Of a stretch of DNA of 64,000 nt, positions 8,083-64,000 are shown in pieces. The stretch lies in contig NC_081355.1 of NCBI RefSeq assembly GCF_030684315.1, positions 130,195,178 to 130,259,177 of the forward strand. The letters run 5' to 3'. The notes below the pieces were generated by a model, which had not been told where the DNA came from, ran no database searches, and was given only the letters and a program-made list of their open reading frames with translations. The translations under genes were made by a program, and so were the position numbers. Within the stretch, counting starts at the first letter, position 1. Every line of letters begins with the position of its first letter. Source of the stretch: Stegostoma tigrinum. Its lineage: Eukaryota.

Positions 8083-8637
8083 TGCCTTAGCCTAATATAA
8101 AATTACATAAATCTGCTCAAGAATCACCCAATCAGAAAGCTCGTCATTCAGAACAAGATGTCTAGTTTAATCTGAAACATTGCAGAAACCTGCCCAGAGA
8201 TGGCTTGAGGCATTTCCACTGTTAAAAAGCAAGTCCGGTTTAAGGTTTTAGAAAGGCTTTTCATTTACATTTTCATTATGTCTCATCTGGAACTCCCCAT
8301 GAATATTAGGAGCTTCAAACTGAGTTTGTGAAAGCTTAGTAATTTGTTTGGCATTCAGGCTGCCTTAAATGGTTAAATGTACTATTCAATTCAATACTGC
8401 ATCATACAGATCAGGCTACTGAGGCATCTCTGGTCTGCATTTAGCCATCTGATCTCATGAGCTTCTGCAGCTCAAGGATAATATGACTGGCTTCAGCATC
8501 CCTAAGCTCCAGCAAGGATAATGAGAAAACTAAATAATTTGCAGCCTCTATACCGATTGCAAGTCATTGACTAATCCCAGTGCGCAGTATTTGGGCAAGG
8601 GACAGCACAAAAAAAACTGAACAGTACACAACAGTCA

Positions 8638-8726
8638 GAGATAATGGGAACTGCAGATGCTGGAGAATCCAAGATGACAAAGTATGAAGCTGGATGAACA
8701 CAGCAGGCCAAGCAGCATCTCAGGAG
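8638..8726 (-). mobile_element. PLE terminus mini-insertion (family A) with 16-bp TSD
   Basis: Matches the terminus of the long PLE at 47656-47720. Flanked by a perfect direct repeat CAGTACACAACAGTCA at 8622-8637 and 8727-8742. Confidence 0.85.
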
Positions 8727-8898
8727 CAGTACACAACAGTCATCAGGATTACTGATACTCATTACCACGTTATTGTCCTTGCCTCCATTACTTTCAATGT
8801 CATCGTTGGCCCTTTATTTCTCTCGTTCTTTTCATATGCAACAAGTTAGTTTCACCTAAGCTGAATCACTTCTGCAAGAACATCTGAATTTGTATTGG

Positions 8899-9084
8899 AA
8901 ACCAAAAGAACTGCAGATGCTGTAAATCAGGAACAAAAACGGAAGTTGCACTTCTGAGGAAGGGTCACTGGAGCCGAAACGTTTACTCTGATTTCATCTT
9001 CACAGATGCTGCCTGACCTGCTGAGCTTTTCCAGCAACTTCCGTTTTTGTTCCTGATTTAGAGCACCCACAGTTCTTTCGGTTT
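8899..9084 (+). mobile_element. Fold-back mini-element (family B) with hammerhead-like core
   Basis: About 50-bp inverted arms (8899-8949 and 9034-9084). Core CTGAGGA-A-GGGTCACTGGAGCC-GAAACGTT at 8954-8983. Degenerate 14-bp TSD TGAATTTGTATTGG / TGACTTTGTAATGG at 8885-8898 and 9085-9098. Confidence 0.75.
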
Positions 9085-10502
9085 TGACTTTGTAATGGGT
9101 TATGTTAAGTTTATTATAACCATATAACATGACCTGACCTTTGAGGTACCTATTAATAAGATATCTCAGTGCTTACTAATTGCTATTAAATATGTTGTTC
9201 AGAAAAATCGAGCAGTATATTAAAATCAACCATTGAATGAACGACAAAGCTCCTAAAACGAGAAAATAATAATCACTGTTACACCGCCAATGTGTAATCG
9301 ATTAAAAGCACACATTATCACACTCTAGCAAGGTCTGAACACGAGATCATTATCATACACCTCTATAATTTACATTTTAAGAATCGAATAAAACAAAAAA
9401 AGTGTGGTCCATTACCCACAGTGCAGGATGACACCAATGTAGAATAGAACAGGAAACCAGCTAAGTGGGGCAACAATAAAAACTTTTGATATTAAAAACC
9501 CGCACCAAAATGTCATCAGCTGAAAATGAAGGCAGTATAGTTATAAAGAGACAAAGTATTAAATATAGGAGAAAATGGAAGGGAAAGCAGAAAATAAAAG
9601 CATAGTCCAGCAAATATCATTGGTCCATTGATGTTGTTTAATAACTTCAAACAAAGCCCTCTGCTGTAATCCCATAAGTTTGGAAAAAAAATGGAATAAG
9701 TGTTCAATATGAATCAAATAAAATTTTTAGCAACATCTAGTGGTGGCATGATTTCAAGCAATCCAAAAAGATACGGTACATCAGCACTTTAATAAAGTCA
9801 CTCTGACATTTGGAATACACACTGCTTTGTTCAGATTCACATGAGCCTTAAATTGAAAATTCAGGAGACAACTCTCAATCAAATTTCTCTTGAGTAAATA
9901 AGCATCCTGGTTTCTGTTTCTTTATAGCAGCCGAATATAAAAGAGCTACCAATAATGGCAGAGAATTTGTTCACACATTTACAAATTTCATGAAATCACC
10001 AAAGTGAACTGAATGCAAACAATTCTTCAAGGAACTACTATAACTATAATTTCTACAACTGTGACTTAAAATGCCTTAAAATATCACAGAACACATCTCT
10101 GTGAAAACAATGAGCAGAATCAAGTAATCACAAAGAAATTCAATGTACTATAGATTATCTAATATGTGATTCTAGTTTATTCCAAGACTCTGATTAACTT
10201 ATTTTTCATGGCAGAGTCACAAATCTGGTTAATTTTTTTAAAATCTGAAAATGATATTTACTCAACCATGTTGGGTAAAACAAAGCAAGCCATGCCACAG
10301 GTTAGTCAATGCTTACCCTTGCATTTTCAACATTCATGTTATAGCCTGAAGCTCAAACAATGCATCAATTATTGGCTTACAGATCTGAACCAACATAATA
10401 AAATTAACCACCGTAACCTACTGTACCTATTCAATCACTAATACTCTTAGTTAATTGACTTAGCTGACGTGCTCCCCACTGCAACATGGAAACATTTTTC
10501 CC

Positions 10503-15250: not shown

Positions 15251-15696
15251 CCCGTAAGCTAGTCATCAGCTGAAAATAATGATCTTTTTAAATCAAAGTA
15301 AATCTATTCTTTTCTTTGAATGGACCAATAATTACAAAAACAGGTCGGTTGAGAAGTAATGAGCAATGTCTTGGCACGGTGCAAACCTTCGCAATGTACA
15401 ATTTTGCTTATCTCAGGAAAATCACAAGGAAGCTCCATCGTGAATAATCGTTGAGCAACAGTTGAATACTACAGTTAGTTTTTTTTAAAAAGCTGCACGT
15501 CAAGACGGTAGGCAGTCCTGTCTCTATAATTATCGATGTTGCCAAAGCATGGCATGTGGTTTGAATTTAATCAGCGAACTAGGTTTGACATTTCACATTT
15601 TCTACTACATCATCTTCAAGACAACCAAATCAGAACCTTCTGCTCATGTGGTGTAATTTGTTGTTCATTTTCTGAGTTTGCTTTCTTTGGACTACG

Positions 15697-15728
15697 GGCT
15701 TGATGAATACAAGATGAAAAGCTTTGAC
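15697..15728 (+). ncRNA. Degenerate minimal hammerhead-like motif, family C
   Basis: GGC-TTGATGA-ATACAAGAT-GAAA-AGCT-TT-GAC aligns to the 921-970 copy. Differences are mostly transitions. Confidence 0.4.
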
Positions 15729-15749
15729 TTTGCTTACATTCTGTACGAC

Positions 15750-15965
15750 CTAAATGTAAAGTCTCCACAAACCCAGATGACCACAGGGCTTCTCTCTCAT
15801 CAACTGGTGATGAGACAACTGGTGGTGGATTAATCTGAGGGTCACCATGTCTCAGGAAACGGGAGAGATTGAAAAGGACAATCCTTCATGGGAACTTCAG
15901 TGGCTTCAGGAATTGAACTCACATTGTTGGTGGCACTCTACATGGCAAGCCAGCTGATTCAACAA
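15750..15965 (-). mobile_element. Old SINE-like repeat (same family as 5835-5990)
   Basis: Shared blocks with 5835-5990. ggaattgaactc reads as a B-box-like GAGTTCAATTCC on the minus strand. Confidence 0.5.
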
Positions 15966-16659
15966 TGTCTAGCAAACAAGATAATAAAGGCTTAATAGTA
16001 TGATATAAAATACTTAAAATATCTAAATGAACAATAAATACAGCTAATGCAATTCTAATTAATCCATCAGGACAAACAATCCACATCATTAAAATACCTT
16101 CAACGTAACAAAATGAAAACATGAAACAAAACAGGAAAAGAAAGTGACATTAGCTGAGATATCCACAAGTCTCAGAGGCAGGTTTCAAGATGTGTCATTA
16201 AGGAGCACAGAGAGCTGTCCGGAGAGAATTAGAGTATAAAGCCGAGGCAAGTGAAAGAACAGTCACCAACTGTCAAGCGATTAAAATTGCAGACGCTCAG
16301 GATTCAAGAAATAAATGAGTACAGATATATTATAGGACTATGAGAATGGAAAATATTACCAAGGCAGGGGGTTACAACAGCATTCAGAGATTTTAAAATA
16401 AGAATCAGAGTTTTAGTATCAGTGCTTTACCACACTACAAGCCAATATCAGTCAGCGAACACAGGGTCACATATAAATGTTAGATAGTTCAAGTTAAGAT
16501 ACCGACAATATCTTTGGAAGAACTCAAGTGCGGGGATGACAGAAAATGGGAAGACAGTCACAAGTTGGAATAATCAAGGTAAAAGGTAACAAAAAAGTGT
16601 GAATAAAAGGAGTCCAATGTTAATGTTGTTGGATTAGTAATCCACAGATCATGTTCTGG

Positions 16660-17175
16660 TATCTGTGCCCCTCGTGATTTTATAAATCCCTATAACGTCA
16701 TCTCTCAACTTGTTATACTCCAATGAAAAAGTCCCAGCCTATCCAGCTACTTATAACTCAAATCCTCCAGTCCTGGCAACATCCTTGAAAATCTTTTCTG
16801 AACCATCTCCAATTCGCATTTTAGGGTAATCACAAGTACATGCAGTACTCAGAAAGTGGCCTCAATTGCACAACCCCAAAATAACACTCCAACTCCAATG
16901 CTCAGGGCTAAATGCCTGCTTAACCATCCTATGTACCAGTGATGTAAATTTCCAAGAATTATGTATCTGAACTGTTAGGTCTCTGTTTGACAACACCATC
17001 CAGGGTCCTACCATTAAGTGAACAAGTCTCACCCTTGTTCATCTTACCAAAATATAATGCCTTGCATCTCTCCAAATTAAACTCCATCTGCCACTCCTCA
17101 GCCCATTGGTCCAACTATTCAAGATACTTTTGTAGTTTTAGATTACCTTCTTCACCATCAACTATACCACCAATT
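16660..17175 (-). mobile_element. CR1 LINE fragment
   Basis: aaattaaactccatctgccactcctcagccca (WAEEWQMEFNL) and downstream ORF2 homology. Confidence 0.75.
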
Positions 17176-17504
17176 AAATACTGTAGTTTTTAAAAAGAGA
17201 TTTGTCATGCCACTAGAAAAAATGGAAACTAAGTGTTAAAAGTTACAAATTATGCAACCAAATCTAAATGCAGATTACGTGCCATATGCTGACATTTCTT
17301 TGGGGGTACAGGGGACTGCAACAGCACAAAGACAGCACTTTACAAAGCCTTATATTAAGTAACTGAATGCAAATGGATTGTGGCAAATTTATCAACTGTT
17401 GAGTATCAGACTATTTCTGAAGAAATTGCTGCTGCTGAATCACATGGTTGTGGGGTTTAGGGCTATGAGTACTAATTAAGGTCAACATTAGTTTCACAAT
17501 CAAA

Positions 17505-17700
17505 ATGCTACACTTTCAGAGGTGCTATCTTTCAAATGAGATGTTCAACCACATGTATCTATCCGCACGTGACTGGAAAACTGACATAGTACCGTACCAT
17601 TCAAAGAGAAGCAGGGAACAGGGTCTGGCCAATGCTCACTTTCCCAACATTATCTAAAGCAGACTGACCTTATTCTAACCATGGAACCTTGCTGTTGTTC
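17505..17700 (+). mobile_element. Deu-domain SINE (SacSINE1/AmnSINE1-like) remnant; similar remnants at about 5390-5530, 28010-28370, 39040-39270 and 53190-53500
   Basis: cagaggtgctatctttcaaatgagatgttcaacc...ttcaaagagaagcaggg...ctggccaat...ggaaccttgctgt resembles the Deu core as I recall it; not searched. Confidence 0.55.
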
Positions 17701-18705
17701 CTGCTGGCCAGTGGCCTTTTCCAGATCCACGTTTCTTTGGGTTGCCTTTCAAGTTATCGTGATTTAGTATAGTGTTGACCAACGGATTTGACCAAAAAGT
17801 TAGAAAATATGGATGATTCACCCCCCACCCCCCCAATCATACAAGCCATGAGTTAAAATCCATGCTGTCCCCAGCTCCTGTTGAAAACACTGATCAGCAC
17901 AAAACCGACTGGAAACTTGCAATCTTCAAAAAAATAGACAAGTTTAAAAACTCAATAATTGTACAGAGTTTTTTTTGGCTATGCAGTTTTACTGCATAGT
18001 GTTCTGGTGACATGTGGGTAAAAAGCAAATATTCATTTATGGGCAGAGAAACCAAGCTCTCCCATTAATTTACACAGTCATTTCAACACAATGAACATCA
18101 CATTGAGAGATCAGATTGTTATCAGATTACTCCAGCACAATTGTTGCAGAAAGGCGTAACAAAAGAAAGACTTTTCCCAGTTTGAACTACAAATAATGAA
18201 AATAAAGAATGCTAATAGCTCAGTTCTGAAGATTTCTTTCCCCTCGCCTTTCTTAAGTTCTCCACTCTGGCCAAACACCGCATTCCTTACAGAGACAGAA
18301 CAGTTTTGTTGATTGAAACATCTCTTCAAAATGCCCTGCCAAACGTCACTTGAAAACCCAAATACATAAAACCTTCAGATTCCCTTGTATTAACCCTGTG
18401 TTACACATCAGGAAAAAGCTGATTGATTTGTCAAACATAATTGCCTTTCCACAAAACCATCTTAACTCTGCATGATCACATTACAATTTTTCAAATGTCC
18501 TGCTAATACCTACTCAATGAAGGATTCTAGCACCCTAAAACCAGGATTCAGGTTTCAGTTTCACAGCGCAACGGTGCATGTTCAATATTACATGGTTGAA
18601 ATGCAGTATTGTCTCAATTTAAATCTTAGATCTTCCATATTTCCCTAAATTCCCGCTTATCATGCTTTCCCAACTTGAAGCAATTTGACAACATTTATCA
18701 GAGCT

Positions 18706-18788
18706 GCTCTGATGAAAGATCATTGACCTGAAACATTAATGCTGTTTCTCTCTACAGATGCTGCCTGGTCTGCTAAGTATTTTGAGAT
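18706..18788 (+). mobile_element. Family B-like mini-element with hammerhead-like core, host of a nested family A fold-back
   Basis: CTGATGA-A-AGATCATTGACCT-GAAACATT-AATGC at 18709-18742, followed by the family tail tctctctacagatgctgcctggtctgctaagtattt. The element resumes after 19007. Confidence 0.6.
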
Positions 18789-18993
18789 AACAAAGTGTGA
18801 AGCTGGGTGAACACAGCAGGCCAAGCAGCATCTCAGGAGCACAAAAGCTGACGTTTCAGGCCTAGACCCTTCATCAGAGAGGTCTAGGCCCGAAACATCA
18901 GCTTTTGTGCTCCTGAAATGCTGCTTGGCCTGCTGTGTTCATCCAGCTTCACACTTCGTTATCTTGGATTCTCCAGCATCTGCAGTTCCCACC
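18789..18993. mobile_element. Fold-back PLE mini-element (family A) with intact minus-strand hammerhead-like core and 14-bp TSD
   Basis: About 84-bp inverted arms (18785-18868 and 18881-18964) with a 12-nt spacer. Minus strand TCT-CTGATGA-A-GGGTCTAGGCCT-GAAACGTC-AG at 18880-18848. Perfect TSD AAGTATTTTGAGAT at 18775-18788 and 18994-19007. Confidence 0.9.
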
Positions 18994-19859
18994 AAGTATT
19001 TTGAGATTTGTGTTTTTATTTTATCTTTATTTCATTATATTTTTAAGGTCACCCGACAACTGTCAAAAATAGTTAATGCATCTTCAGTTCTGGAAAGCAA
19101 TTTTTTATCCTTGTCTTTCATCTCAAATCAGATCTGGAGTAGTGGTGATTAATTTGCTGGTTCCTCTTTCATGGTTTTCAGCACCTTCTGTTCCCCTTGC
19201 ACCACAGTGCCCAAAATTGTGCACAGAGCTCCAGATATGGTCTGATTTCAACAGTAAATAGTTTAGCCACAGCTTCCATAAACACTTTTGGCTGCTGTTC
19301 AAAACTCATCCGGTTTTGTTCACGTCTACTCTGCAATGATATAGTATATTGAATGTAAAGGTTATCGGCATTGAGATTTCCTTCAATTTCACCTTGAGTA
19401 ATTTCAAAAGTACTTATGAAGTACTTGCTACTTTCTCTTTATATTTGCACTCAATATGCACCAAAATTAAAATCTAGTCTGTCCTCTTCCATAGTTTTTC
19501 ACACTTACATATTTCACAGGTTATGCTATTGCAAAACAATGGAATTCCATTTAATCTGGTGGTTGAAAACTGAAGTTTTGGTAATTCTTCAGATCATTTA
19601 ACTGATGTAACTAATTCTAGCAGAGCTCTGAGGCACAGCATTTTCATAAGGCTTTTACCTCCCCTGTATTTTTCCTCTTTTCATTCTACAGTTTTGAAGA
19701 ATGGCATTCATGTAAGAGTACTATTTCTTAAAAAGTCACTCATTACCAGCAATCCAAACTCATGACTTCTACCATCGAGGAGGGCTCATAGGAATACCAA
19801 CACCTCCAACCCACATCTCATTCCTCTGGACAATTCCAAAGATGCACCACCCTCTGAAA

Positions 19860-20420
19860 AGTAAAGAAGTGCTGTTACAATGTCATAAGACATTGGTGAG
19901 ACCACACCTGGAGTAGCATGTCCGGTTTTGGTCTCCTTGCTTGAGGAAGATGTGTGGCAGTTCAGAGAAGGGTCGAAGGATTGAATGCCTACTTCCAATC
20001 CTAATTCCTATGCTGCTCTGAGTAAAATGATTTCTCATTGTGGTCCTAACACGAAGCCTCTCTTTCTTCATCTGTGCCCCTTTGTTTCGAGATTCCTCAA
20101 ACAGAAAATAAATAGTCAAATATCTTATCTACATCTACTCTAATCATTTGTACTATTCTGTAGCTTTCAACAAGGTCACCTCACATTCTTCAAAACCCCA
20201 CAGAGAATGCAAGCACAGTTTGTCCCATTTCTCTTCACAAACCATCCCAGGAACAAGTCTGGTGGACCTTTGCTGATCCTTCGAGATAAAGAGACCAAAA
20301 CAGCATCAAGTCCTCCAAGTGCAGTCTAGCCAAGTTTTTACACAGTGAAAGAGGACTTCCTGGGCTGCAATCCATTTGCAATAAAGGCCAACACTTCATT
20401 AGTTTCCTAACAGCAAATCA
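19860..20420. mobile_element. CR1 fragments in both orientations
   Basis: Plus strand ttggtgagaccacacctggagta...ttttggtctcc; minus strand ORF2 C-terminal homology at 20000-20420. Confidence 0.65.
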
Positions 20421-20559
20421 ATACAGCTGTTTTTAAACTTTTCCCCTTTCTTTCAAACAGAAACAACATCCACAAGCTTCCAACCTGCAGGAATCATTCT
20501 AGATGGAATTTTGGAAGAAGGTGACCAATGCGTTGACTATCACACGCTTGTTATTATTT

Positions 20560-20905
20560 ATCATGAGATGAGATGTGGTATCACTGATCCATCAGTATTT
20601 ATTGTCCATTGAACCAACTGACTTGCTAGGATCATTTCAGAGACGAGAGTTAACTATTTCCATGGATCAAGGACTTCATGTAGGTCAAACCAAATACAAA
20701 GAAACGACTTCCTTCCTTAGTTAACCAGATCTGTCTTTCTGACAAAGATCACATTCTTATTTAGGCTAACTTCTAAATCCACATCTTTACTGAATTCCAA
20801 TTTCACTACCTCCCAACGTGAAATTTGAACCGATGTCCTCAGAGCACAGGTCTGGGGTTTTGAATTTCTACTCTTGTGGTTCTACCAATATACCACTGCC
20901 TCCCC
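20560..20905 (-). mobile_element. Decayed tRNA-derived SINE (family of 2329-2690)
   Basis: catgtaggtcaaacca...cttccttcc...ttactgaattccaatttcac...ataccactgcctcccc aligns with 26875-27225. Confidence 0.55.
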
Positions 20906-21460
20906 TAGGCATGCATGTAGTCATGTGTTGTTACATCACCAGGTTGGCACCTCTTTTTCACTGTTCAATCTGGTTTTCCTTCTCAGCATGCCATCCTGCA
21001 CTCTATTCTGGTGCATGAATGATCCTCTAGTATGATGACAATCATGGGGTGGGGAATATATCATGCCATTAAGTTACAAATGGTGTTGAATACAGTTTTG
21101 TTGCTGCTAATATCACTGAGCACCTCAGTTATAATTTGCTTGTTTTGTTCAGACACCATCCTATCCAGCAAAATGCGAGTGGCACACTCAAAGGACACTT
21201 CAATGTGAAAGTGGGTCTTTGCCTCCACAAGGTCTGTGTGGTGTTCACTCCTACAAATACAATAATTGACAGCTGCATCTACTACACGAAGACCGGTAAG
21301 GAAGAGGTCAAGTACATCTTTTCCTCTTGAAGTCCTCACGTCCACAGATTCAACCAGCATGGTCAGTGGTTCCAGAAAGGACCCAAAACATTAACCATGT
21401 TTCCCTCTCCACAGATGGTGCTAGGCCCACGGAGTTTCTCCAGCACTTCTGATTTTATTT

Positions 21461-23175
21461 TGGTCGGTGGTGATGACCGGGAGGGCTGGACATGGGATGA
21501 AGACAGCGATGGGGAGGTTTTGAAGCTAGTGAATTCCATGTTGAGGTTATTGGGCTGGTTAGTGTGGAGTGGACAAAGGAGTCATGGAGAAAGTAGTCCC
21601 TACAGAAAGCAGACGGGGTGGGAGGGGAAGCTGTCTTTGGTGGTGGAGTTTGATTGCAGGTAGCAAAAAAGTGACAAAGAATGATGCACTGGATACAGAG
21701 GTTGCAGAGTGGCATACGAGAACAAGGAATAAGGTGCTGTTCCTCTAATTCTTGCATTGCCTCATTGTGACATTGGAGGGGGCCCAGGATGGACATACTG
21801 CTGAGGGAGTGGGAAGAGAAGTTGAAATGTTCGGCAACCAGAAGGTGGTGTTGATTGGAGCGTACAGAGCGCAGATGATCCGCAAATCTGTCACCGAGTC
21901 TGCGCTGGTCTCACCCATGTAGAGGAAACCACATCAGGTGCAACAGATGTAGTTGACCAGGCTGAAGTACAGGTGAATCCCTGTCAGATACAGAATTGTT
22001 TCTGGCATTGGAAAAAGGTGGAGGGGCAGTGTAGGGGCAGGTACTCCCAATTCCTCAGATAATGGGAACTGCAGATGCTGGAAAATCCAAGGTAACAAAG
22101 TGTGGAGCTGGATAAACACAGCAGGCCAAGCAAGTCCTAAGATGCTGCTTGGCCTATGTTCATCCAGCTCCACACTGTGTACTCCCAATTCCTCCACCGC
22201 TTCTGCTCCTGGAATGAAGCTTTCCACTTCAAGGGCCTAAATTTCCCCTCTCGTGTGATTCATATTACCCTTAAATGCATCTCTTGCATTTCCCACACTT
22301 GTGCCTCCAAACAACCTTCCCCCAACAAGGATAGAGTCCCCCTGGTCCTCCCTCATACGCCATCCCACCAACCTCTGAATCCAATGTATCGTCCTCCGTC
22401 ACTTTTGCTACCCACAATCAGGCACCACCAGAGATATTCCCCTCCCAGCCCTCTACTTTCTGCAGGGACAGTTCTCTCGGTGACTCCCTTGTCCATGCCA
22501 CACTAACCACCAACCACTCCACACCCAGCAACTTTCCCTGCAGCCGCAGGAAATGCTATACCTCCCCTCTCACCTCTGTCCAATGCTCCAATCATTGTGT
22601 CTGACAGGGATTCAGCTGTACATCTTCCAACCTGGTCTACAGCATTCGGTGCAACTGATGTGTTCTCCTCTACATCGGTGAGACCAAGTGCAGACACTTG
22701 ACAGATCTGCAGAGCATCTGTGCTTTGTACTCTCCAAACAACACCACCCCTTCTGATTGCCAGCCATTTCAATTCCCCCTCCCCCTCCCTTAACCACATG
22801 TCCATCCTAGGCCTCCTATGTCCCAATAAGCCACACAAAAACGCCACCTTTTATTCCACTTGGGAGCTTACAGCCCGATGGCCTCAACATAGAATTTACT
22901 GGCTTCAAAATCTCCCCACCCCCAAGCCTTATCCCCAGTCCAGCCCACCTCCTTGACCCGACATAACCTCTCACCTATCTGCCCCACCTTCCCAGTGACC
23001 AATCTCCACTATCCCCTGACCTGCATCCACCTATCACCATACCCCCAGCCTTACTCCCTGTATTTATTTCTGAGCTCCCTCCCCTATCTCCAGTCCTGAT
23101 CAAAAATGTCAAATTTCCTATTCCTCTGACGCTGCCTGACCTGCTGTGTTCCTCCAGCTCCACACAGTATTGACA
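21461..23175. mobile_element. Decayed PLE with an inverted 5' part: GIY-YIG segment on minus (21461-22040), RT end/GIY-YIG/3' UTR on plus (22041-23175)
   Basis: Minus strand MSILGPLQCHNEAMQELEEQHLI. Plus strand YSQFLHRFCS.NEAFH, PCSRRKCYT, LLYIGETK, ASHFNSPSPSLNHMSILGLL, and the terminal gctgcctgacctgctgtgttcctccagctccacac. Confidence 0.85.
22057..22178. mobile_element. Fold-back PLE mini-element (family A) with 16-bp TSD, nested in a PLE
   Basis: Inverted copies of the PLE terminus. Perfect TSD GTACTCCCAATTCCTC at 22041-22056 and 22179-22194. Confidence 0.88.
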
Positions 23176-41820: not shown

Positions 41821-43774
41821 CATTAAGATATTGAAATGGTTGAAAAGAAATATTTAAATATCATCCAAAAAAAATTTTACATCTAACTATACTCTAGAGT
41901 ATAGAGTTTATTCTCTGTTCTCAAAATTCTACCAGAGCTTTTTTGGACACTGAAGATGGGGAAAAAAGACACTAGAGAAGTTTTTGCAGAAATGACCAGG
42001 AGATTAATTAAAACTATTCAGCCGATTTAGAAAGTAGTAACTTTACCCTCAGAACAAGAAACATTAAGAATTGATTGGCTTTGGTTCTACGATAGGGACT
42101 TATTTTGCGAAGACTAGGATCGAGTTCAGGTGTAATGCTTTCCATTTCACACAGTCCAGTAACACTCAATGTCAAGGTTCACAGGATTCTAGACACTTGG
42201 AATTAATTTTATTGGAAAAATTTAACTTGCTGCCTGGGGATTAAGTGGCATAACACAGTCACTGGAAAGAAGTGCAAAAGGGAAAATGGAGGGCAAGAAA
42301 GTGAATTGGTATTCCTGTCCAGACTTCTGGAAGATAGTTACAGGAACTCTGATGATGACAGTAATGAAAACAATTTTCTTGGGGGTTGAACTAGGAGTCA
42401 TTTATGGCCGATTACTGAGGGGGTGCATCTTTTTATTTTACTGCTGCAGTCCTTAAGCGAGAATATTGCCCTACTATGAGTGTGGCACAAGTTGATAAAT
42501 GAATTGTCATACAAACAAGAAAGTCAGAATGGTATGTATCATGGAACAGAATCTGGCATGTAATGGTGTTCTGAAGAGAGGCAGCAGCTATCTAAGTACA
42601 CTCTCACATTAAGAAAAAAAGGTGTAGTCCTAATCTAGTGGCAGAGGGAGGATAATTTTGACTGATGTCAAGACATCTTGTGTATTATCGTGACTAGCTA
42701 TCCAGACCAGCGGTAAGTATTTGACTGTCCTCCTAACCTTACATTTGTAAAGTGAAGGGACTAAGTCACCACGTGACAAGAAACCAAAATTGCAACCCTG
42801 CTCTAATAGTCAAAATACACATGGTTCATGGAAAATTGTGACCAGTGCTTTGGGGCCTGACAACCCTATTTTTTTTTTAAACTAAGTATCTTGGAGGAAA
42901 GCATAGAGATGGTGAGTTCAAGATCCATTCAAGGAATTTCCGCTGTGATGCCCTGGAGCTGAAATGGCTTGCTCTAAAATCCAAAGCTAATTCCAAGGAA
43001 AATTTGCTATGTCTCTAGGGATTTGAGGATCTTCTTCAGTTTTGCAGGGGTCCCTTGATGGCCTAGTCAGTCTAATGCTGCTCTAAATGCCAAGACCAAT
43101 ACCCTTGCCCTTCCTTTAATATTAAAGTCTTGATCCAAATCGAGGGTCAAAAAGGTACAAAGAAGAAGTCCGAAGCAAAGTAGCAACTTGTAGAACTCAA
43201 GTGAATGCAATAGCGTAAACTGTCCCTTGCTGATACTATTGACCAATCGGCCATGATTTCAGGAATGTGTATTGTGTCAATTTCTTTTGTCATTTCTCCC
43301 ACTGAGCCCGATTCCCTCATTCTGGAGGTGTAACACTAAATTGAGTTTCTTTTCCACAACTCTGTCAAATAAAAAGGAAGCAGTTCACAGCTGCCAGTCT
43401 CCAGAATCCAAGCCAAAAAGGTGCAAATAGACAAATAATGCGTGATTTCCCATAGCCAAGTAAACCTTCCGATAAACCTAACTCAAAGTTGGTAAAGACT
43501 CTTCCAGTGATGCCTAACCTGAAGTTACCCTGCTCCCTCCGGACAAACCTCAGGGGATCGCTATCCCACTGCAACTGTCTTGTAATCTCTTCGGCCTTGA
43601 AACTGCTCCATCCCTGCCCCTTTAACTTATCTGTCTCCTCTCCACCCATCTTCTCCTCTATCCATCTTCAATCCACCTCCCCCTCTCTCCCTGTTTATTT
43701 CAGAACCCTCTCGCCATCCCCCTTTTCTGAAGAAAGGTCTCGGCCCGAAACGTCAACTTTTATGCTCCAAAGAT

Positions 43775-43781
43775 ATGGGGG

Positions 43782-43835
<54 letters not shown>

Positions 43836-45287
43836 CCACTGGAGTCGTACCTGAGGACTGGAGAGAGGCAAATGTAATTCCTCTCTTCAAGAAAGGAAAT
43901 AGGGAAATCCCCGGCAATTACAGACCGGTAAGTCTCACGTCTGTCGTCTGCAAGGTGTTAGAAAGGATTCTGAGGGATAAGATTTATGACCATCTGGAAG
44001 AGCATGGCTTGATCAAATACAGTCAACACGGCTTTGTGAGGGGTAGGTCATGCCTTACAAACCTTATAGAGTTTTTTGAGGATGTGACTAGTAAGGTTGA
44101 TGAGGGTCAAGCTGTGGATGTGGTGTATATGGACTTCAGTAAGGCATTTGATAAGGTTCCCCATGGAAGGCTCATTCAGAAGGTCAGGAGGAATGGGATA
44201 CAGGGGAACTTAGCTGCTTGGATACAGAATTGGCTGGCCAACAGAAGACAGCGAGTGGTAGTAGAAGGAAAATATTCTGCCTGGAAGTCAGTGGTGAGTG
44301 GGGTTCCACAGGGCTCTGTCCTTGGGCCTCTACTGTTTGTAATTTTTATTAATGACTTGGACGAGGGAATTGAAGGATGGGTCAGCAAGTTTGCAGACGA
44401 CACAAAGGTCGGAGGTGTCGTTGACAGTGTAGAGGGCTGTTGTAGGCTGCAGCGGGACATTGACAGGATGCAGAGATGGGCTGAGAGGTGGCAGATGGAG
44501 TTCAACCTGGATAAATGCGAGGTGATGCATTTTGGAAGGTCGAATTTGAAAGCTGAGTACAGGATTAAGGATAGGATTCTTGGCAGCGTGGAGGAACAGA
44601 GGGATCTTGGTGTGCAGATACATAGATCCCTTAAAATGGCCACCCAAGTGGACAGGGTTGTTAAGAAAGCATATGGTGTTTTGGCTTTCATTAACAGGGG
44701 GATTGAGTTTAAGAGTCGTGAGATCTTGTTGCAGCTCTATAAAACTTTGGTTAGACCGCACTTGGAATACTGCGTCCAGTTCTGGGCGCCCTATTATAGG
44801 AAAGATGTGGATGCTTTGGAGAGGGTTCAGAGGAGGTTTACCAGGATGCTGCCTGGACTGGAGGGCTTATCTTATGAAGAGAGGTTGACTGAGCTCGGTC
44901 TCTTTTCATTGGAGAAAAGGAGGAGGAGAGGGGACCTAATTGAGGTATACAAGATAATGAGAGGCATAGATAGAGTCGATAGCCAGAGACTATTTCCCAG
45001 GGCAGAAATGGCTAGCACGAGGGGTCATAGTTTTAAGCTGGTTGGTGGAAAGTATAGAGGGGATGTCAGAGGCAGGTTCTTTACGCAGAGAGTTGTGAGA
45101 GCATGGAATGCGTTGCCAGCAGCAGTTGTGGAATCAAGGTCATTGGGGTCATTTAAGAGACTGCTGGACATGCATATGGTCACAGAAATTTGAGGGTGCA
45201 TCCATGAGGATCAATGGTCGGCACAACATTGTGGGCTGAAGGGCCTGTTCTGTGCTGTACTGTTCTATGTTCTATGTTCTATGTTCT
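43775..45287 (+). mobile_element. Young 5'-truncated CR1 (HER1-type) LINE with uninterrupted RT/C-terminal ORF2
   Basis: About 450 aa without stops ([58 protein letters not shown]), stop at 45193, (TGTTCTA)4 tail at 45261-45288, probable TSD AAAGAT at 43769-43774 and 45288-45293. Confidence 0.96.
43777..43833 (+). repeat. G8(AG)24 microsatellite at the CR1 5' junction
   Basis: Direct reading. Confidence 0.97.
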
Positions 45288-45762
45288 AAAGATGCTGCTT
45301 GGCCTGCAGCGTTCATCCAGCTCCACACTTTGTTATCCGTAAAGTTGGTAAACACAACTCATGAATAACTAGCTTCAGGTAACAATCACTAAAATTGTTC
45401 TCCAGGCAGGGGAAGCTTTGCCACGGCATTTTGTTAATTTTTTTTAAAAATTGCATAATGTGGTTAAGTTCCAGCAATTCTTCTGCCCTTGGCACAAAAC
45501 AAAGACTGACTAGAGCTGCATCTTCTCTACCATTGCTTTAGTTCAAATTCAAACAACTTTTATTTTTGCAAGCTAGCCAGTTTCTGGCATTTATACGACA
45601 TAGCCCAGCTTCTTTACCCAGTAGCAGACTCAGACCAGGTATTTCACTAGCATAGTAGATTTAAATAGTAATTTTGGTGGTTAACCGCTGCATAATTGTT
45701 GGAAGACAAAAAGGGCCCGTTTGTCTGTATTACTCACAATGTGAAAGTAATTTCTTGTTCTT

Positions 45763-47655: not shown

Positions 47656-49375
47656 AATCCAAGATAATAAAATGTGAGGCTGGATGAACACAGCAGGCCA
47701 AGCAGCATCTCAGGAGCACAAAAGCTGACGTTTCGGGCCTAGACCCTTCATCAGAGAGGGGGATGGGGAGAGGGAACGGGAATAAATAGGGAGAGAGGGG
47801 GAGGCGGACCAAAGATGGAGAGGAAACAAGATAGGTAGAGAGGAGAGTACAGGTGAGGAGGTAGGGAGGGGATCGGTCAGTCCAGGGAAGACAGACAGGT
47901 CAAGGAGGCGGGATGAGGTGGTAGGTAGGAAACGGAGGTGCGAATTGGGGTGGGAGCAAGGGATGGGTGAGAGGAAGAACAGGTTAGGGAAGCAGAGACA
48001 GGCGGGGCTGGTTTTGGGATGCAGTGGGGGGAGGGGACGAGCTGGGCTGGTTTTGGGATGCAGTGGGGGGAGGGGAGATTTTGAAGCTTGTGAAGTCCAC
48101 ATTGATACCATTGGGCTGCAGGGTTCCCAAGCGGAATATGAGTTGCTGTTCCTGCAACCTTCGGGTGGCATCATTGTGGCACTGCAGGAGGCCCATGATG
48201 GACATGTCGTCTAAGGAATGGGAGGGGGAGTTAAAATGGTTCGCGACTGGGAGGTGCAGTAGTATGTTGCGAACCGAGCGGAGGTGTTCTGCAAAGCAGT
48301 CCCCAAGCCTCCGCTTGGTTTCCCCAATGTAGAGGGAGCCACACCAGGTGCAACGGATACAATATACCACGTTGGCAGATGAACATCTGCTTGATATGGA
48401 AGGTCATCTTGGGGCCTGGGATAGGGGTGAGGGAGGATGCGTGGGGGCAAGTGTAGCACTTCCTGCGGTTGCAGGGGAAGGTGCCGGGTGTGGTGGGGTT
48501 GGAGGGCAGATTGGAGCGGACAACGGAGTCGCAGAGAGAGTGGTCTCTCCGAAAGGCAGACGAGGTTGGGGATGGAAAAATAGCTTGGGTGGTGCGGTCG
48601 GATTGTAGATGGCAGAAGTGTCGGAGGATGATGATACGTTGTATCCGGAGGGTGGTGAGGTGGTACGTGAGAACGAGGGGGATCCTCTGGGGGCAGTTGT
48701 GGCAGGGGCGGGGTGTGAGGGATGTGTTGCGGGAAATGCGGGAGACGCGGTCAAGGGCGTTCTCGACCACTGCGGCAGGGGGGAACGTTGCGGTCCTTGA
48801 AGAATGTGGACATCTGAGATGTGCGGGAGTGGAAAGCCTCATCGTGGGAGCAGATGCGGCAGAGGCAGAGGAATTGGGAATAGGGGATAGAATTTTTGCA
48901 GGAGGGTGGGTGGGAGGAGGTGTATTCTAGGTAGCTGTGGGAGTCGGTGGGCTTGAAATGGACATCAGTTACAAGCTGGTTGCCTGAGATGGAGACTGAG
49001 AGGTCCAGGAAGGTGAGGGATGTGTTAGAGATGGCCCAGGTGAACTTGAGGTTGGGTGGAAGGTGTTGGTGAAGTGGATGAACTGTTCGAGCTCCTCTGG
49101 AGAGCAAGAGGCGGCGCCGATACAGTCATCAATGTAACGGAGGAAGACGTGGGGTTTGGGGCCTGTGTTGGTGTGGAAGAGGGACTGTTCCACGTAACCT
49201 ACAAAGAGGCAGGCATAGCTTGGGTCCATGCGGGTACCCATGGCCACCCCCTTTGTCTGTAGGAAGTGGGAGGAATCGAAAGAGAAGTTGTTGAGGGTGA
49301 GGACGAGTTCGGCTAGGCGGATTGGTCGTGCCTGCGGGACAGGAAGAAGCGGAGGGCCTCATGGCTCCGGACACA
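47656..49375 (-). mobile_element. Penelope-like element (Neptune-type), 5'-truncated, frameshifted RT + Cys linker + GIY-YIG endonuclease + 3' terminal repeat
   Basis: AMGTRMDPSYACLFVGYVEQ, FLRYIDDCIG (RT catalytic motif), FLDLSV, KPTDSHSYL, PCNRRKCYTC (Zn-finger-like linker), VYCIRC..CGSLYIGETKR (GIY-YIG), LGTLQPNGIN. Confidence 0.95.
47724..47757 (-). ncRNA. Minimal type I hammerhead ribozyme-like motif in the PLE terminal repeat
   Basis: CU-CUGAUGA-A-GGGU(CUAG)GCCC-GAAA-CG-UC|AG. All core nucleotides are present. Stem II is 4 bp, stem III is reduced to the ACGU palindrome, stem I is only 2 bp. Predicted cut between 47727 and 47726. Confidence 0.7.
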
Positions 49376-52118: not shown

Positions 52119-54013
52119 TCCAAGCAACTTCAGTCTAGGTCTCTACATTGATACTTAAGTGGAATTTCCAGTACCACCTTGATTCATTAGCAAGTTCCTC
52201 CCAGTCATTAGTGTCAACATAGGTGTGCTTCAACAACAGCTTCAGGATGCCTTTGCAGCATTTCCTTCATCCTCCCCATAACATCAGACATTTAAGAACT
52301 GAGGAAACAGGACCCAGAGGAGACATTTTCAACAATCTAGGTGTAGCACCCAGTCTATCATGGTTGATACTGCAGGAGCATTGCCTGAACGCTTGTGGAG
52401 CTGGACACCAAGGTGTCAAGTTGCATTTGATTTATTTTCATTTATTTTCTAAACCTTACTCCAATTCTCTCAAGTGTTTAGACTTATATTCAATCATCTG
52501 GAAACATTAATATTTCGAAGGAAATGGTGATAGGACTAGATCAAGCAAAATGGGAGGAGATTCACATGAAGCATACACACTGTGTGAAGTAGTTGGTCCA
52601 AGTTTCTGTGCTGTAAGTAATTTGTAATTCATGTTTTAATGCTTGTACTCATCTTAGAAATTATGCTTCCTACTTACAAGTGAAAATAATTTTTAAATAA
52701 TTTACACATTCAATGCATCATAAAATATATACTGTTATTTGTTTTAGGTTTTTCAATTCAGCTGCATCCTTTCATTTTTGATATATCATCCCTGTTAACC
52801 ACTACTGTGCCATTTTATTGGCTTCCAATACTTCTTTTTTGACAATTCATTCACAGGATGTTAGTGTCATTGGCAGTCTCTAATAGAAGTCCAAGGATGA
52901 TGATGATGATGGACACCTTCACAAACTACTCCATCCACAGTGCTGTTAGGAAGGAACTCCAGCTGTTTCACTCAACAGTGAAAGAGCAGCAATACTGTTG
53001 CAATTTGGGATCATGTGTGATTTGCTGAAGAAACTTGGTAGTTACTCTGTATGCCTGCTGCGCTTGTCCTTCTAAATGACAGAGATTGTGGACTGGAAAG
53101 CGCTGTGTGTAGACTGAGGTCTTAAATTAGATGCTTGTGAGCAGGCCGCTTGCACGTAATCTAGTTCAACACCTCAGCCTATTACTGAAAGAACACAGCA
53201 TTGTCAGAGGTGCTTATCTTCACGTGGCACAAAAAACCAAGTATTAAGACTGTGTATTCAAACAAGAACAGCAAGGTTTCCTCAACTGTTCAACAGCTTT
53301 TCTTCAGTAAAGATCATTCAAAACAAAACAACTGAACATTCATCTCATTACTGTTCGAGATTGTGCTGTCTGCAAAGAAACTGTCACTCCCCTCTGCAAA
53401 TTAAGAATGACTGCAGTTGAGAAGTAATTCAACATGCATCAAGTGTTTTGTGACATCCTCAATGACCTGTTCAAGTGCTGTCTGCATATAAATATGAGAT
53501 CCATTATTCCGCTCAATTCATGAATACCTTGTTTTCATTCTTAATGCATTTACAGATCAAATCCTGCATTCCCACCTGTATCAGTATTAAAACTTTTTCT
53601 TTAACCTAAATAGCAACCAACAATTTTTCCGGTGATGAATGACTTGCTTTAGATGAGAATTTTTTTTTCCCCCACAGGAATTTGTTAAGGCTTTATCCAG
53701 TGCAAGGTCAATTGAAAACTAGACATTAAACATGCAACCAAGGTGAATGAATAACATTTAAAATTAAGTTTATGGGAAGTCATCAAAAATTGTCCACTCA
53801 TTACAAAACTTACTGCTTGGGTGGCAAGGATTATAACACAAAGGATATGTCATCACATTTTTTCAAAAATCAATCCAAAAATATACCTCAAGCAAACTAT
53901 TTAGCCAATTATTCGAATATTTCTTGCACAGTAAATACACATTTGCAAATTCTAACTACACAGGAACATACAGAAAATCACAATAATTATAATCAAGGAA
54001 CATTAAATATTTA

Positions 54014-54155
54014 AGATAACAAAGTGTGGAGCTGGATGAACACAGCAGGCCAAGCAGCATCTCCTGAGATGCTGCTTGGCCTGCTGTGTTCATCCAGCTC
54101 CACATTTTGTTATCTTGAATTCTCCAGCATCTGCAGTTCCCATTATCTCTGATAC
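54014..54155. mobile_element. Near-perfect fold-back PLE mini-element (family A, lacks the ribozyme core) with 15-bp TSD
   Basis: 51-bp arms 54013-54063 and 54066-54116 with one difference. TSD AACATTAAATATTTA / AACGTTAAATATTTA at 53999-54013 and 54156-54170. Confidence 0.9.
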
Positions 54156-55269
54156 AACGTTAAATATTTAGCCAGTAGTTTTGTGGCACTGTGAAGTAAT
54201 ACATTTACAGCAGGCTACCACTAATACCTAACCTTACATTTCCGGTACATCTCAACTATTGATTAAAAAGTTAGTCCATGCACAAAGTAGGCAATACAGT
54301 TTGTGCGACCAATTATCCGATTCAACACAAACCTCCACTTTCAGTTTAACTAGAGTTGGAATACAATTCAACTCAACCAAATAGATTTATATGTATATGC
54401 TTTTGGTCAAGAGTTAAAAGATGCACGTGGCAGGAATTTCAAGGTCACAACTGTTCACAGCTCTTCAAAATAATTGACAGGTTTGTGAAAATTACACTTT
54501 CATTTGCTTGTGCTAACTATGCAAAGAATAAAAAAAAACGCACTTTTTAATCATAGTTCACACTAACAGTACATTAACTTCAACAATTGATCAGTATTAA
54601 AGGTCCATGTAGTTTAGTTATATTTTCCATTTACCTACTTTGGCTAATTGGCCAAACTTTCCAACTCTTATTTTTAACACTTTTCTGAGAAAGTAAACCC
54701 TGTTTTAATTACCCAACAGACTAGTCTGAAAACGTTTAGAGTTAATTTTAAAGTTACGAATCTAATTTACTACAATGAGATGACTTTAAATTAGACACCA
54801 GTTAGAGGGGAGCAATGTGTCCATCTCAAGCAGAAATTCGTTTCTTTTGTTGCTTGATGCGAAAACAGCGTTATTAGCCAATGAATTCCGATCCTACTCA
54901 TGCAATCATCTCACTGACAAGACTGACTGGAAATGAGAGAGGGGGAAATAACGCTTCTGTTCCTATTCGTATTTCGGTATCATCAGTAATCAGCGACTCG
55001 TCTACGGAATTTAATCGATCGTTCGAAAACATGAAACCCAAATTCTTGTCAAATACTTCCCAGGAAAGGAGTCCGAGGCCTCCGTGTTTGGGAAAGCCTC
55101 GAGCTGGAGTTGAGTCACCTTCTTCTCACAGTCCGAGGCCGCTCCATTTCACCTCACACCAGTTTGTATTTTTCTCCCCCGCCGAGGGAGGGGAAAGAAA
55201 ATAAATTTACAGACAGGAGAAAAATACACCCAAATCTGCCGGGGGATAAAGTTACGAAAAACTTTTTTA

Positions 55270-61787: not shown

Positions 61788-63087
61788 AACTTTCTGGAAT
61801 ACATTCTGATTCTTTTTCCAAGTAGGCTTTATGATATACATCTTTTATTGTCTCATCTTTTTGTTGTAACTCCATTAATCTTTCAGAACTAAACACCTTG
61901 CCTGTTCCTCTACCTGCCTAGGTTTTTCCTTTATCATTTCATCAAACAGGGTTTCAGTTAACTGGCCCTCAACTCCTTTCTCTTTCTCTTTAGTTTTTTC
62001 TTCATGCTGTAACTTATGACTGTAGGATCTTGTTACCATGCAGTCTGTAAAATTCCAGGGTATTTTTCTGTTAACTCCTCAGTTCCCTGGTTTTCCTTTG
62101 ACTTCTTCACTGCAAGTGCTGTCACTCCCACTCTTAATCCTGTTAGGTCATTTCAGAGAACAGACTCTATTCCTGGAATTGACAGTCTTTCAATCACTCC
62201 CACTTTCACATTCCCAGTCTTCATTGGACTTCCACCCTAATCTTACACAAAGGAAAGCTGCGTCTCTCTCCACCTATTCCACAGATTACCACATTTCAGA
62301 AGGAGTGCAAATAATTTCATCTCTTTCTATTAGAGACCAACCAGCTCCCATATCTCTCAATATTTTACCTTCTTTACCTTGTCCCCCTGCTCTTCCTAAG
62401 CAAACTCTACCCCCAGAGATGAGGATTTTGTAGCGATCAGGCAATATTTTACTATCTAGCCCATAACTAGGCTGTGCCATCTCCTGCAGCTCCTCAACTT
62501 CTTTTGGGATTTCCTTCACTACCTCAACCAATCTCACTGGTTTAGCATCTTTCACCACACCCTTTTCCCAGTACCTTTTTTAAACCACTGGCACTGTGAC
62601 TTTTTGTGTCCCACTCCAATGTAGAGACAACACCTGAGGCCTTTCACCTCCTTTTGCCCTCTTGGGTTTGTATTTTCATATGTGATAAACTGTTCCCAGT
62701 GTGATCTAATTTTTGTTTCTCATTAAAGGATCTTGTTCTTTCCCAATTTCCATCCCTCATGGAATAAAATTGCTGTCAGAAGCTAAGTTTTGATTGATGC
62801 AGTAACTCATAATCATCAACCATCCGTACAGCTCTCCTTGATATTTAAATGTTCTGTTCCACAATATGAGTTTTCATCATCTCTGGAAGTGAGTTTTTAA
62901 ACTCCTTCAGCAGAATAATCTCTCTAAGATCCTCTTACGTCTTTTCTATCCTTAATGCTCTCATCCATCTATCAAAGTTGTTCTGTTTAATTCTTTCAAA
63001 CTCAGAAGAAGTCTGACCTGGTTCCTCCCTTATATTTTCTGAACTGTTGCCTATATGCTTCTGGTACTAATTAGTAGACACTCAAAA

Positions 63088-63185
63088 TTTTCTGAAGGAG
63101 GGTCTTGGTCCGAAACGTCAGCTTTCCTGCTCCTCTGATGCTGCTTGGCCTGCTGTGTTCATCCAGCTCTACACCTTGGTATCTC
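63088..63185 (+). mobile_element. PLE mini-insertion starting 4 nt before a variant hammerhead-like core; 12-bp TSD
   Basis: TTTT-CTGAAGG-A-GGGTCTTGGTCC-GAAACGTC-AG...ttatctc. TSD AGACACTCAAAA at 63076-63087 and 63186-63197. Confidence 0.85.
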
Positions 63186-63432
63186 AGACACTCAAAAGAG
63201 CCTATCTTACTTCTTCATATTCTCTTGACACCTCCTCTGACAGCACTGCAAACACCTCACTAACCCTGCCTACTAACACGATCTGAAGAAACATTACCCA
63301 CGCAATCTCTGACCAATTCATTTGCCTGGTCAGTTTCTCAAGGGAAATGAAAAAAGGCTTCTACATCTTTATCATTGAATTTTGGTAATGTTTTGACATA
63401 TTTGTATATATCCCTACCATGTCTTTGGCTAC

Positions 63433-63658
63433 AGAGATGATAGGAACTGCAGATGCTGGAGAATCTGAGATAACAAGGCATAGAGCTGGATGAACACAGC
63501 AGGCCAAGCAGCATCAGAGGAGCAGGAAGGCTGACGTTTCAGGCCTAGACCCTTCTGCAGAAAATGAATTCAGACCCTTAGGCCCACAACACCAGCTTTC
63601 CTGCTCCTCTGATGTTGCTTAGCCTGCTGTATTCATCCAGCTCTATTTCTTGTTATCT
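63433..63658. mobile_element. Fold-back PLE mini-element with mutated core and 15-bp TSD
   Basis: Inverted copies of the terminus. Minus-strand core CTGCAGA-A-GGGTCTAGGCCT-GAAACGTC. Perfect TSD CATGTCTTTGGCTAC at 63418-63432 and 63659-63673. Confidence 0.88.
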
Positions 63659-64000
63659 CATGTCTTTGGCTACGATGGGTTTGCTCAACATCACTCTCCT
63701 CCTCACTAAGCCTAAGTTCTACCATCATCTCCATCCTTTAAATTGACTTTCCTGTTTAATTTGCAACTTCTGAAGTTCAAACTCGGTCTCTTTTTCTTTT
63801 TGCCCAGCCAAGAACATTCTGTCCTTTTCATTATCTTCTAACGTGGCTCTTCTTTACCTTTCTTTCTTTTCTGCTTTTGACTGTAATTCAAAATCTCTTT
63901 CTTTTCTTTCATTCTCTAACTCCAGTTGTCTCATTTGCAAATTAATTTTTTCCTAACTCCACTGCACTTGCCTGTTTCTCTGACATACCTAGGTGTTTGA

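What the first reader, a model, noticed from the sequence alone, without database searches (positions are those of the whole stretch)
18775..19007. MITE-like fold-back elements built from PLE termini, with long 12-16 bp TSDs
Seen: short (about 90-290 bp) insertions made only of PLE terminal sequence, mostly as head-to-head inverted pairs, with direct flanking repeats. These are 16 bp (8622/8727), 14 bp with 2 mismatches (8885/9085), 14 bp (18775/18994), 16 bp (22041/22179), 12 bp (43485/45341), 15 bp with 1 mismatch (53999/54156), 12 bp (63076/63186) and 15 bp (63418/63659). The fold-back point and arm lengths differ in every copy, so they are not amplified from one master MITE. Inference: each hairpin was created at insertion, by priming reverse transcription from both target-strand ends (twin priming) or by template switching by the PLE RT after a staggered cut of about 14-16 nt. 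Established: PLEs often have inverted terminal repeats, but TSDs are variable or absent in many families. This copy has about 84-bp arms and keeps a full ribozyme core.
Basis: partly seen in the sequence, partly recalled or inferred. Interest (0 to 1): 0.7.

Follow-up and report, generated by a model that had tools for sequence, protein, structure and literature searches.

The report
Hairpin stubs of shark Penelope retrotransposon
This is a tiny hairpin-shaped leftover of a Penelope-like jumping gene, a layout already described for this class, but a related shark lacks it and carries the flanking repeat only once, so such stubs record how the element cuts DNA and starts copying.

Summary
All 8 flanking repeats are at the stated places; 7 are far beyond chance, 8885 is weaker. 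Only 5 of 8 inserts are fold-backs; two are single arms and one is a longer piece split by a LINE. The focal insert is two head-to-head copies of the 3' end (pLTR) of a Neptune-type Penelope-like element (PLE). It is a real insertion: a related shark (93% identical) joins 18774 directly to 18994, with one copy of the repeat. These are not MITEs. In 4 of 4 family A fold-backs one arm carries the ~35-nt 'tail' and the other does not, the published PLE layout (PMC3846280, PMC8557442), matching the two RT start sites shown in vitro (PMC11167929). Best reading: nicks 9-16 nt apart, each 3' end primes its own cDNA (dual priming), and the two short cDNAs are joined. The ribozyme core is intact on one arm only, with a G-U closing pair, and is buried in the hairpin. 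The scan noted this in three other windows. New lead: over 130 contigs show tail-to-tail joints of PLE ends. Known architecture, useful mechanistic record.

The parts
18775..18788 (.). Left target-site repeat (14 bp; its last 4 nt also match the element end, so true duplication 10-14 bp)
   Evidence: skipped together with the insert in the relative
18785..18882 (-). Left arm: PLE family A 3' end without tail, ruler +93 to -4 (+1 = first base of the hammerhead core)
   Evidence: 95% identical to the end of the long PLE copy at 47662-47759
18850..18877 (-). Minimal type I hammerhead motif; single-stranded core bases intact, stem II closed by G-U instead of G-C
   Evidence: descriptor scan and comparison with the 47754 copy; features from PMC4209133
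18881..18991 (+). Right arm: same PLE end, ruler +10 to about +119, carrying most of the tail (18965-18991); 2-nt overlap with the left arm at the centre
18994..19007 (.). Right target-site repeat; the single copy kept in the relative
   Evidence: table 8, records 6 and 21; junction also held by a same-species contig (record 14)
18707..19022 (+). Host: an older, diverged PLE pLTR into which the focal insert landed
   Evidence: alignment with six other old pLTR copies
8622..8742 (-). Family A single arm with tail, 16-bp repeat (11-16); not a fold-back; probably absent in the relative
   Evidence: table 3 (indirect)
8885..9098 (.). Family B fold-back, tail-like end on both arms, 14-bp repeat with 2 mismatches; shared with the relative
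22041..22194 (.). Family A fold-back, tail on left arm, 16-bp repeat, inside an older PLE ORF fragment where the 16-mer is single-copy in the long natural copy
43485..45352 (+). Single-sense PLE piece (~330 nt) with 12-bp repeat, split by a later LINE; not a fold-back
53999..54170 (.). Family A fold-back, tail on right arm, 15-bp repeat (12-15), 3-nt overlap at the centre
63076..63197 (+). Family A (second subfamily) single arm without tail, 12-bp repeat (9-12)
63418..63673 (.). Family A (second subfamily) fold-back, tail on left arm, 15-bp repeat (12-15), short filler at the centre
47656..49370 (-). Long 5'-truncated, frameshifted parent-type PLE copy: RT motifs, CX4CXXC linker, GIY-YIG endonuclease, pLTR; no flanking repeat

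Best explanation
These are extremely 5'-truncated insertions of a Neptune-type, endonuclease-positive Penelope-like retrotransposon. Steps: (1) the element's GIY-YIG endonuclease nicks both target strands 9-16 nt apart, leaving 3' overhangs [stagger shown by the repeats and the empty site; the enzyme is inferred]; (2) each target 3' end primes reverse transcription on element RNA at one of two start zones, about +93 (no tail) or about +129 (tail), often helped by 1-4 nt of pairing [end positions and overlaps shown; priming inferred from the in vitro work on Poseidon]; (3) both cDNAs stop early and are joined head to head through 0-3 nt of overlap or a short filler, and repair fills the gaps, giving repeat - antisense arm - sense arm - repeat [inferred]. 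If only one end is extended the product is a single arm with the same kind of repeat (8622, 63076). Because both arms cover the same terminal stretch, two templates are needed: two RNAs in a dimeric particle, or two pLTRs in one tandem transcript. The stubs are dead-on-arrival by-products, not a separately amplifying family.
For: Arms are 92-95% identical to the 3' end of an RT + GIY-YIG copy in the window. Empty orthologous site with one copy of the repeat at 18775 (X1 record 6 and X4 record 21 contiguous; X7 records 29/30 fit by a 30-nt unitig overlap). 13 family A outer ends fall in two groups, 8 at +82 to +100 and 5 at about +118 to +133; 967 same-species contigs leave the element at 8635 (+130) into mixed A-rich flanks (table 7). 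4 of 4 family A fold-backs have one end from each group. 16 nt of overlap at 11 outer junctions against 3.7-5.9 expected (p = 9e-5 to 5e-3; read by eye). Centres differ in 5 of 5. Purified Poseidon protein nicks and extends both strands, starts RT at two sites that bound the tail, and is predicted to be a dimer (PMC11167929). Inverted pLTR + tail + 8-10 bp duplication described in rotifer PLEs (PMC3846280).
Against: The empty site is shown directly for 1 of the 4 named sites inside the laid stretch (8622 indirect, 8885 shared, 22041 no row shown), in one related species, and X1/X4 may be one data set. 8885 has the tail-like end on both arms, and 4 of 5 asymmetric is not different from two independent draws. 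10 of 19 PLE-end loci have no detectable repeat, including the family A copies 13141, 38271 and 47656. PMC11167929 reports RT starting at RNA sites not homologous to the cut DNA and concerns a Poseidon, not a Neptune, element. PMC3846280 prefers self-priming on an antisense template for inverted junctions. No biochemistry here; n is small.
Confidence: 0.65

Rival explanations
1. Single priming plus snap-back or template switch: one target 3' end primes RT, the cDNA folds back on itself (or jumps to an antisense template) and is copied back, then joins the second nick.
For: Overlaps of 2-3 nt at two centres and a short re-copied filler at 63418; both arms of a unit are the same subfamily and share some copy-specific bases; self-priming proposed in PMC3846280. 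Arm differences of 2-13% fit decay of identical arms.
Against: A cDNA primed at +93 lacks the tail, so it cannot template the tailed arm; a cDNA primed at +129 would have to stop copying back at +93, the very place where single arms also end (63076, 43485). Dual priming needs no such coincidence.
Confidence: 0.22
2. The stubs come from a short non-autonomous pLTR RNA (retrozyme- or SINE-like, perhaps starting just before the hammerhead) mobilised in trans, rather than by heavy truncation of full-length RNA; priming as in the best explanation.
For: 3 family A arms begin within ~6 nt upstream of the core (18775 left, 63076, 63418 left); 491 contigs leave at 18878 (table 7); 38271 and 43497 hint at a ~380-nt unit; chondrichthyan retrozyme consensus length averages 363 bp (10.64898/2026.07.22.740005).
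Against: Other arms begin at +10 to +51; none begins at the cleavage site (+28/29); no tandem array in the window; 18878 is also where the laid reference arm ends, so that count is not specific. Compatible with, not exclusive of, the best explanation.
Confidence: 0.25
3. True MITEs: non-autonomous DNA transposons that happen to derive from PLE ends and amplify from a master by cut-and-paste.
For: Short, non-coding, inverted arms, flanking repeats.
Against: Outer ends are not inverted copies of each other (tail on one side); repeat length varies 9-16; centres and sizes all differ; single-arm copies have the same repeats; same-species depth falls about tenfold across the 22041 centre (80,745 at 22133 to 8,446 at 22134, table 4).
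Confidence: 0.03
4. Post-insertion origin or artefact: recombination/deletion between long inverted copies, break repair that captured PLE cDNA, or assembly fold-back.
For: A long old inverted PLE exists at 21470-23172; the left focal junction was not seen in a listed same-species contig.
Against: Exact repeats abut both ends; arms differ at 5 of 84 positions; the right junction is in a same-species contig with 1 difference in 949 (record 14); clean empty site. Internal deletion of a longer inverted insert cannot be excluded for single copies.
Confidence: 0.1

Closest known systems
Complex insertions of EN+ Penelope-like elements: inverted pLTR plus 30-40 bp tail (Arkhipova 2013, PMC3846280; Craig 2021, PMC8557442)
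   Same: Head-to-head inverted pLTRs, tail on one end, variable-length duplication, heavy 5' truncation, hammerhead in the pLTR.
   Different: Here the whole insert is 120-230 nt with no ORF between the arms; repeats are up to 16 bp against 8-10 bp in the rotifer examples read.
Poseidon of Anolis carolinensis in vitro (Frangieh 2024, PMC11167929)
   Same: Both strands nicked and extended; two RT start sites bounding the tail; ribozyme cleavage not needed; AT-rich targets (repeats here 68% AT against 59% for the window, not tested for significance).
   Different: Poseidon, not Neptune; no nick spacing or inverted product reported in the main text; RT start said to be non-homologous to the target, whereas 1-4 nt overlaps are in excess here.
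L1 twin priming and proposed dual priming (Meyer 2010, PMC2837659; 10.1101/2024.08.27.596794)
   Same: Two target 3' ends each prime a cDNA; inverted pieces inside one duplication; short overlaps at junctions.
   Different: Twin priming copies different parts of one RNA and deletes between them; here the same terminal part is copied twice, as dual priming predicts; no poly(A), different enzyme.
Animal non-LTR retrozymes (10.64898/2026.07.22.740005)
   Same: Short, non-coding, PLE pLTR-derived, type I hammerhead.
   Different: Retrozymes are head-to-tail tandem units each with a ribozyme; these are head-to-head, with at most one intact core.
MITEs
   Same: Small size, inverted arms, flanking repeats.
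   Different: No fixed duplication, no uniform size, no matching termini, retroelement sequence.

Membership tests
EN+ Penelope-like element (source family) | RT followed by C-terminal GIY-YIG endonuclease | tested here: met
   Long copy 47656-49370: RVT_1 at E 0.0047, below Pfam's cut-off; EN stretch hits 19 proteins, 10 with PF26215, one with PF01541 and one with PF00078; motifs visible in three frames. The EN stretch itself had no Pfam hit.
EN+ Penelope-like element (source family) | Type I (minimal) hammerhead motif in the pLTR | tested here: met
   Descriptor hits at 47754(-) and 18877(-); Rfam found no hammerhead family at E <= 1, so this rests on the descriptor and PMC4209133.
EN+ Penelope-like element (source family) | Inverted 5'-truncated copy and 30-40 bp tail at one end | tested here: met
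   4 of 4 family A fold-backs; tail about 36 nt.
EN+ Penelope-like element (source family) | Variable-length duplication made on insertion | tested here: met
   Empty site at 18775; lengths 9-16.
Neptune/Nematis clades | CX2-5CXXC motif between RT and EN | tested here: met
   CX4CXXC in the 48231-48926 frame; definition in PMC8557442.
Neptune clade | RT phylogeny with Neptune rather than Nematis | not tested
   No tree built; Neptune is inferred from its vertebrate distribution.
MITE | Terminal inverted repeats reaching both ends | tested here: not met
   One arm overhangs by 25-40 nt in 4 of 5.
MITE | Fixed short duplication and uniform size from a master copy | tested here: not met
   genome-wide only 15 of 5,438 joints were shown.
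MITE | Partner DDE transposase with the same termini | not tested
   No genome is held.
Non-LTR retrozyme | At least two head-to-tail units, each with a complete hammerhead | tested here: not met
Active hammerhead ribozyme (focal copy) | Self-cleavage | not testable with these tools
   Predicted fold buries the core in an 84-bp stem; closing pair is G-U.
L1-type twin priming product | Inverted and upright parts come from non-overlapping regions of one RNA | tested here: not met
   Arms overlap over 32-84 nt of the same ruler positions.

The most novel reading that the evidence does not exclude
Neptune-type PLEs integrate routinely by dual priming: a dimeric particle cuts with a 9-16-nt stagger, each subunit primes its own template at one of two start sites with 1-4 nt of pairing, and the particle is also drawn to the ends of existing PLE copies, which yields frequent tail-to-tail joints. 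Shark genomes, with very many stubs and readable empty sites in relatives, would then hold an in vivo read-out of the still unsolved PLE integration step.
Probability: 0.35. Interest if true: 0.65.

Novelty: new member of a known kind. Interest (0 to 1): 0.4.

Why it matters
How PLEs make their tandem and inverted structures is stated as open in PMC8557442 and PMC11167929. Stub-sized inserts show both ends, the centre and the duplication within one short read, and the relative shows the pre-insertion site, so nick spacing, RT start sites and priming overlap can be measured at scale. Practical point: such hairpins will be mis-called as MITEs or microRNA precursors (one scored E = 0.0005 against a plant miRNA model, far below its cut-off). 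The architecture itself is known, which caps the interest.

Tried and rejected
Rfam: no hammerhead hit; two sub-threshold miRNA hits rejected as hairpin artefacts. Pfam on 9 and then 6 frame fragments did not see the GIY-YIG domain. Exact scan of JGI metagenome contigs for the family A end: 0 loci. No tail-to-tail joint of the kind seen exists in the window. Preference for inserting into older PLEs (2 of 8 here) was considered and dropped as too few. Hammerhead cleavage as the cause of the inner ends rejected: no family A arm starts at +28/29. Obligate one-tail asymmetry not claimed (4 of 5). No verdict on 22041 or 13141 in the relative: no row shown. Paper searches found no paper on short TSD-flanked PLE hairpins in sharks and none pairing Penelope with twin priming as a mechanism (3 listings, not opened); PMC12602865 has none of the terms. 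The library lacks most subscription papers; the older Penelope papers (1997-2006) and all supplements were not read and may give duplication lengths in this range.

Full report
Observation. The focal stretch is a 205-nt insert (18789-18993) between two exact 14-mers. Its arms are 84 nt and 94% complementary and fold as one long stem (z = -22 against shuffles, expected for any inverted repeat). With borders taken from alignments to natural window copies and 1,500 random border pairs as null, 7 of 8 have p of about 0.001 and 8885 has p = 0.005 with two mismatches. For 43485 the left border was first set from the repeat; later showed element homology starting at the same place.

Corrections. Five of the eight are fold-backs; 8622 and 63076 are single arms; 43485 encloses a LINE with an RVT_1 domain. 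A census with 9 natural arms as queries gave 19 PLE-end loci; 17 were tested and 2: 7 strong repeats, 2 weak (8885, 21360/21461), 10 none. Of 10 family A loci, 7 have a repeat and 4 are short fold-backs. Several repeat ends also match the element, so nick spacing is 9-16 nt, 10-14 for the focal copy.

What the sequence is. The arms match the 3' end of a long, frameshifted copy at 47656-49370 on the minus strand (95% for the focal left arm). That copy shows RT motifs, a CX4CXXC linker and a GIY-YIG stretch; the latter hits 19 of 618 candidate proteins, the best two from Rhincodon typus (91%) and Stegostoma tigrinum (89%), with PF26215 on 10, PF01541 on 1 and PF00078 on 1. The linker motif marks the Neptune and Nematis clades (PMC8557442, passages); no tree was built. 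The focal insert landed inside an older pLTR, on the transcribed side of a Par3-type first exon at about 55520-55650 (that it lies in that gene's intron is inference).

Empty-site test. One run search found a related organism A and the window's own species B. Four runs were laid on 8400-23400. In X1 (record 6) and X4 (record 21) one 2,612-nt contig aligns to 17099-18774 and then to 18994-19914 with no letters between: the insert and exactly one repeat are missing, at 93% identity. X1 and X4 may be one data set. In X7, a different sample, record 29 stops at 18774 with 52 letters left, which would end at 19045 and overlap record 30 by exactly 30 nt, as unitigs do. For 8622 the evidence is indirect: pieces 8391-8610 and 8744-8923 have the same depth in all three A runs. 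For 8885 organism A contigs reach into both arms, so it is older and shared, in line with its two mismatches. For 22041 no row was shown, but its 16-mer occurs once (2 mismatches) at the matching place of the long natural copy. A same-species contig holds the focal right junction (record 14); the left junction is not in a listed row. Loss in the relative by recombination between the repeats is formally possible but unlikely, given the single-copy target in the host element.

Anatomy. With +1 at the hammerhead core, 13 family A outer ends fall at +82 to +100 (8) or about +118 to +133 (5); a fourteenth copy (38271) runs on. Each of the 4 family A fold-backs has one end of each kind; the family B fold-back has the long end twice. 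In species B, 967 contigs leave the element at 8635 (+130) and 1,457 at the family B end 8899 into mixed flanks (table 7; counts incomplete by the tool's own note). Centres differ in all five: -4/+10, +51/+40, +44/+39, about -5/+14 and the family B one, with 2-3 nt overlaps or short fillers. At 11 outer junctions the repeat shares 16 nt with the element's continuation, against 3.7-5.9 expected (p = 9e-5 to 5e-3; without the one junction that leans, 3e-4 to 1e-2; read by eye; 4 of 11 have none).

Mechanism. A duplication flanking antisense-then-sense arms, both with their 3' ends outward, is what results if both target 3' overhangs prime cDNA. PMC11167929 (main text read, parts 1-3 of 4; supplements not read) shows a purified Poseidon protein nicking and extending both strands and starting RT at two internal sites that bound the tail, with no need for ribozyme cleavage. 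PMC2837659 (passages) defines twin priming as giving an internal deletion and proposes dual priming by two RNAs; 10.1101/2024.08.27.596794 and PMC10191854 (passages) describe the L1 cases. As the arms here overlap, dual priming fits best (0.65). Snap-back, close to the self-priming proposed in PMC3846280 (passages), needs the return copy to stop where single arms also end (0.22). A short non-autonomous template is possible alongside either.

Ribozyme. The core is complete on the focal left arm only, with G-U where the long copy has G-C; PMC4209133 (passages) calls that pair highly conserved and reports that minimal motifs need dimers and cleave weakly. In a transcript the core would be paired with the other arm. 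It is best read as a passenger.

Against a master MITE. Termini are unequal, repeats and sizes vary, single arms carry the same repeats, and same-species depth drops about tenfold across the 22041 centre (table 4). Only 15 of 5,438 joints were shown, so small bursts of one stub are not excluded.

New lead. Four of the 15 best-supported joints link two PLE 3' ends on opposite strands: family A tail end to a family B end (47 and 34 contigs in X11; 4-6 in X1 and X4) and to a tail-less family A end (31 and 21 in X11; 0-2 in A). Mean depth per contig is 25-35 against 15-25 for single-copy contigs, so they look like separate real loci, but sides are only 33-36 nt at 88% likeness and none is in the window. 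They suggest insertion at existing ends or concatemer formation; untested.

Comparison and verdict. Inverted pLTRs with a one-sided tail and a duplication are published PLE features (PMC3846280, PMC8557442, PMC8969392; passages). Eight paper searches found no account of these stubs in sharks, but older Penelope papers were not read. This scan's notes hold three similar findings from other windows, which are leads only; none with the words empty site and orthologous was returned. Verdict: real, correctly read as made at insertion, not MITEs, known architecture at minimal size; value lies in the mechanistic record. Interest 0.4.

Noticed in passing
table 5; window 8635-8637 joined to 8899, 18786, 22093: Over 130 same-species contigs join two PLE 3' ends tail to tail; far fewer in the relative. 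Possible end-targeting or concatemer formation.
   Followed up: partly
window 21470-23172: Old, large head-to-head PLE (arms 76-86% alike). The young 22041 insert's left repeat starts exactly at its inversion junction (22040/22041).
   Followed up: partly
window 38271-38532 and 43497-43774: One copy runs from pLTR through the tail about 140 nt further and stops; another holds that same stretch joined to the 3' UTR. Possible ~380-nt non-autonomous unit, two copies only.
   Followed up: partly
   Followed up: yes
window 32681-32813 and 34211-34341: 133-bp inverted arms, 90% alike, 1.4 kb apart, not PLE-derived, no flanking repeat found; unexplained.
   Followed up: partly
window 55267-55740 (-): First coding exon of a Par3/HAL-family gene (PF12053, E 3e-16).
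   Followed up: no
window 13141-13568 (-): Family A copy inside a LINE fragment with no flanking repeat; it may have deleted a few target bases instead (by eye, not tested).
   Followed up: no
window 18878, 63087, about 63570: Three family A arms begin within about 6 nt upstream of the hammerhead core, none at the cleavage site.
   Followed up: partly
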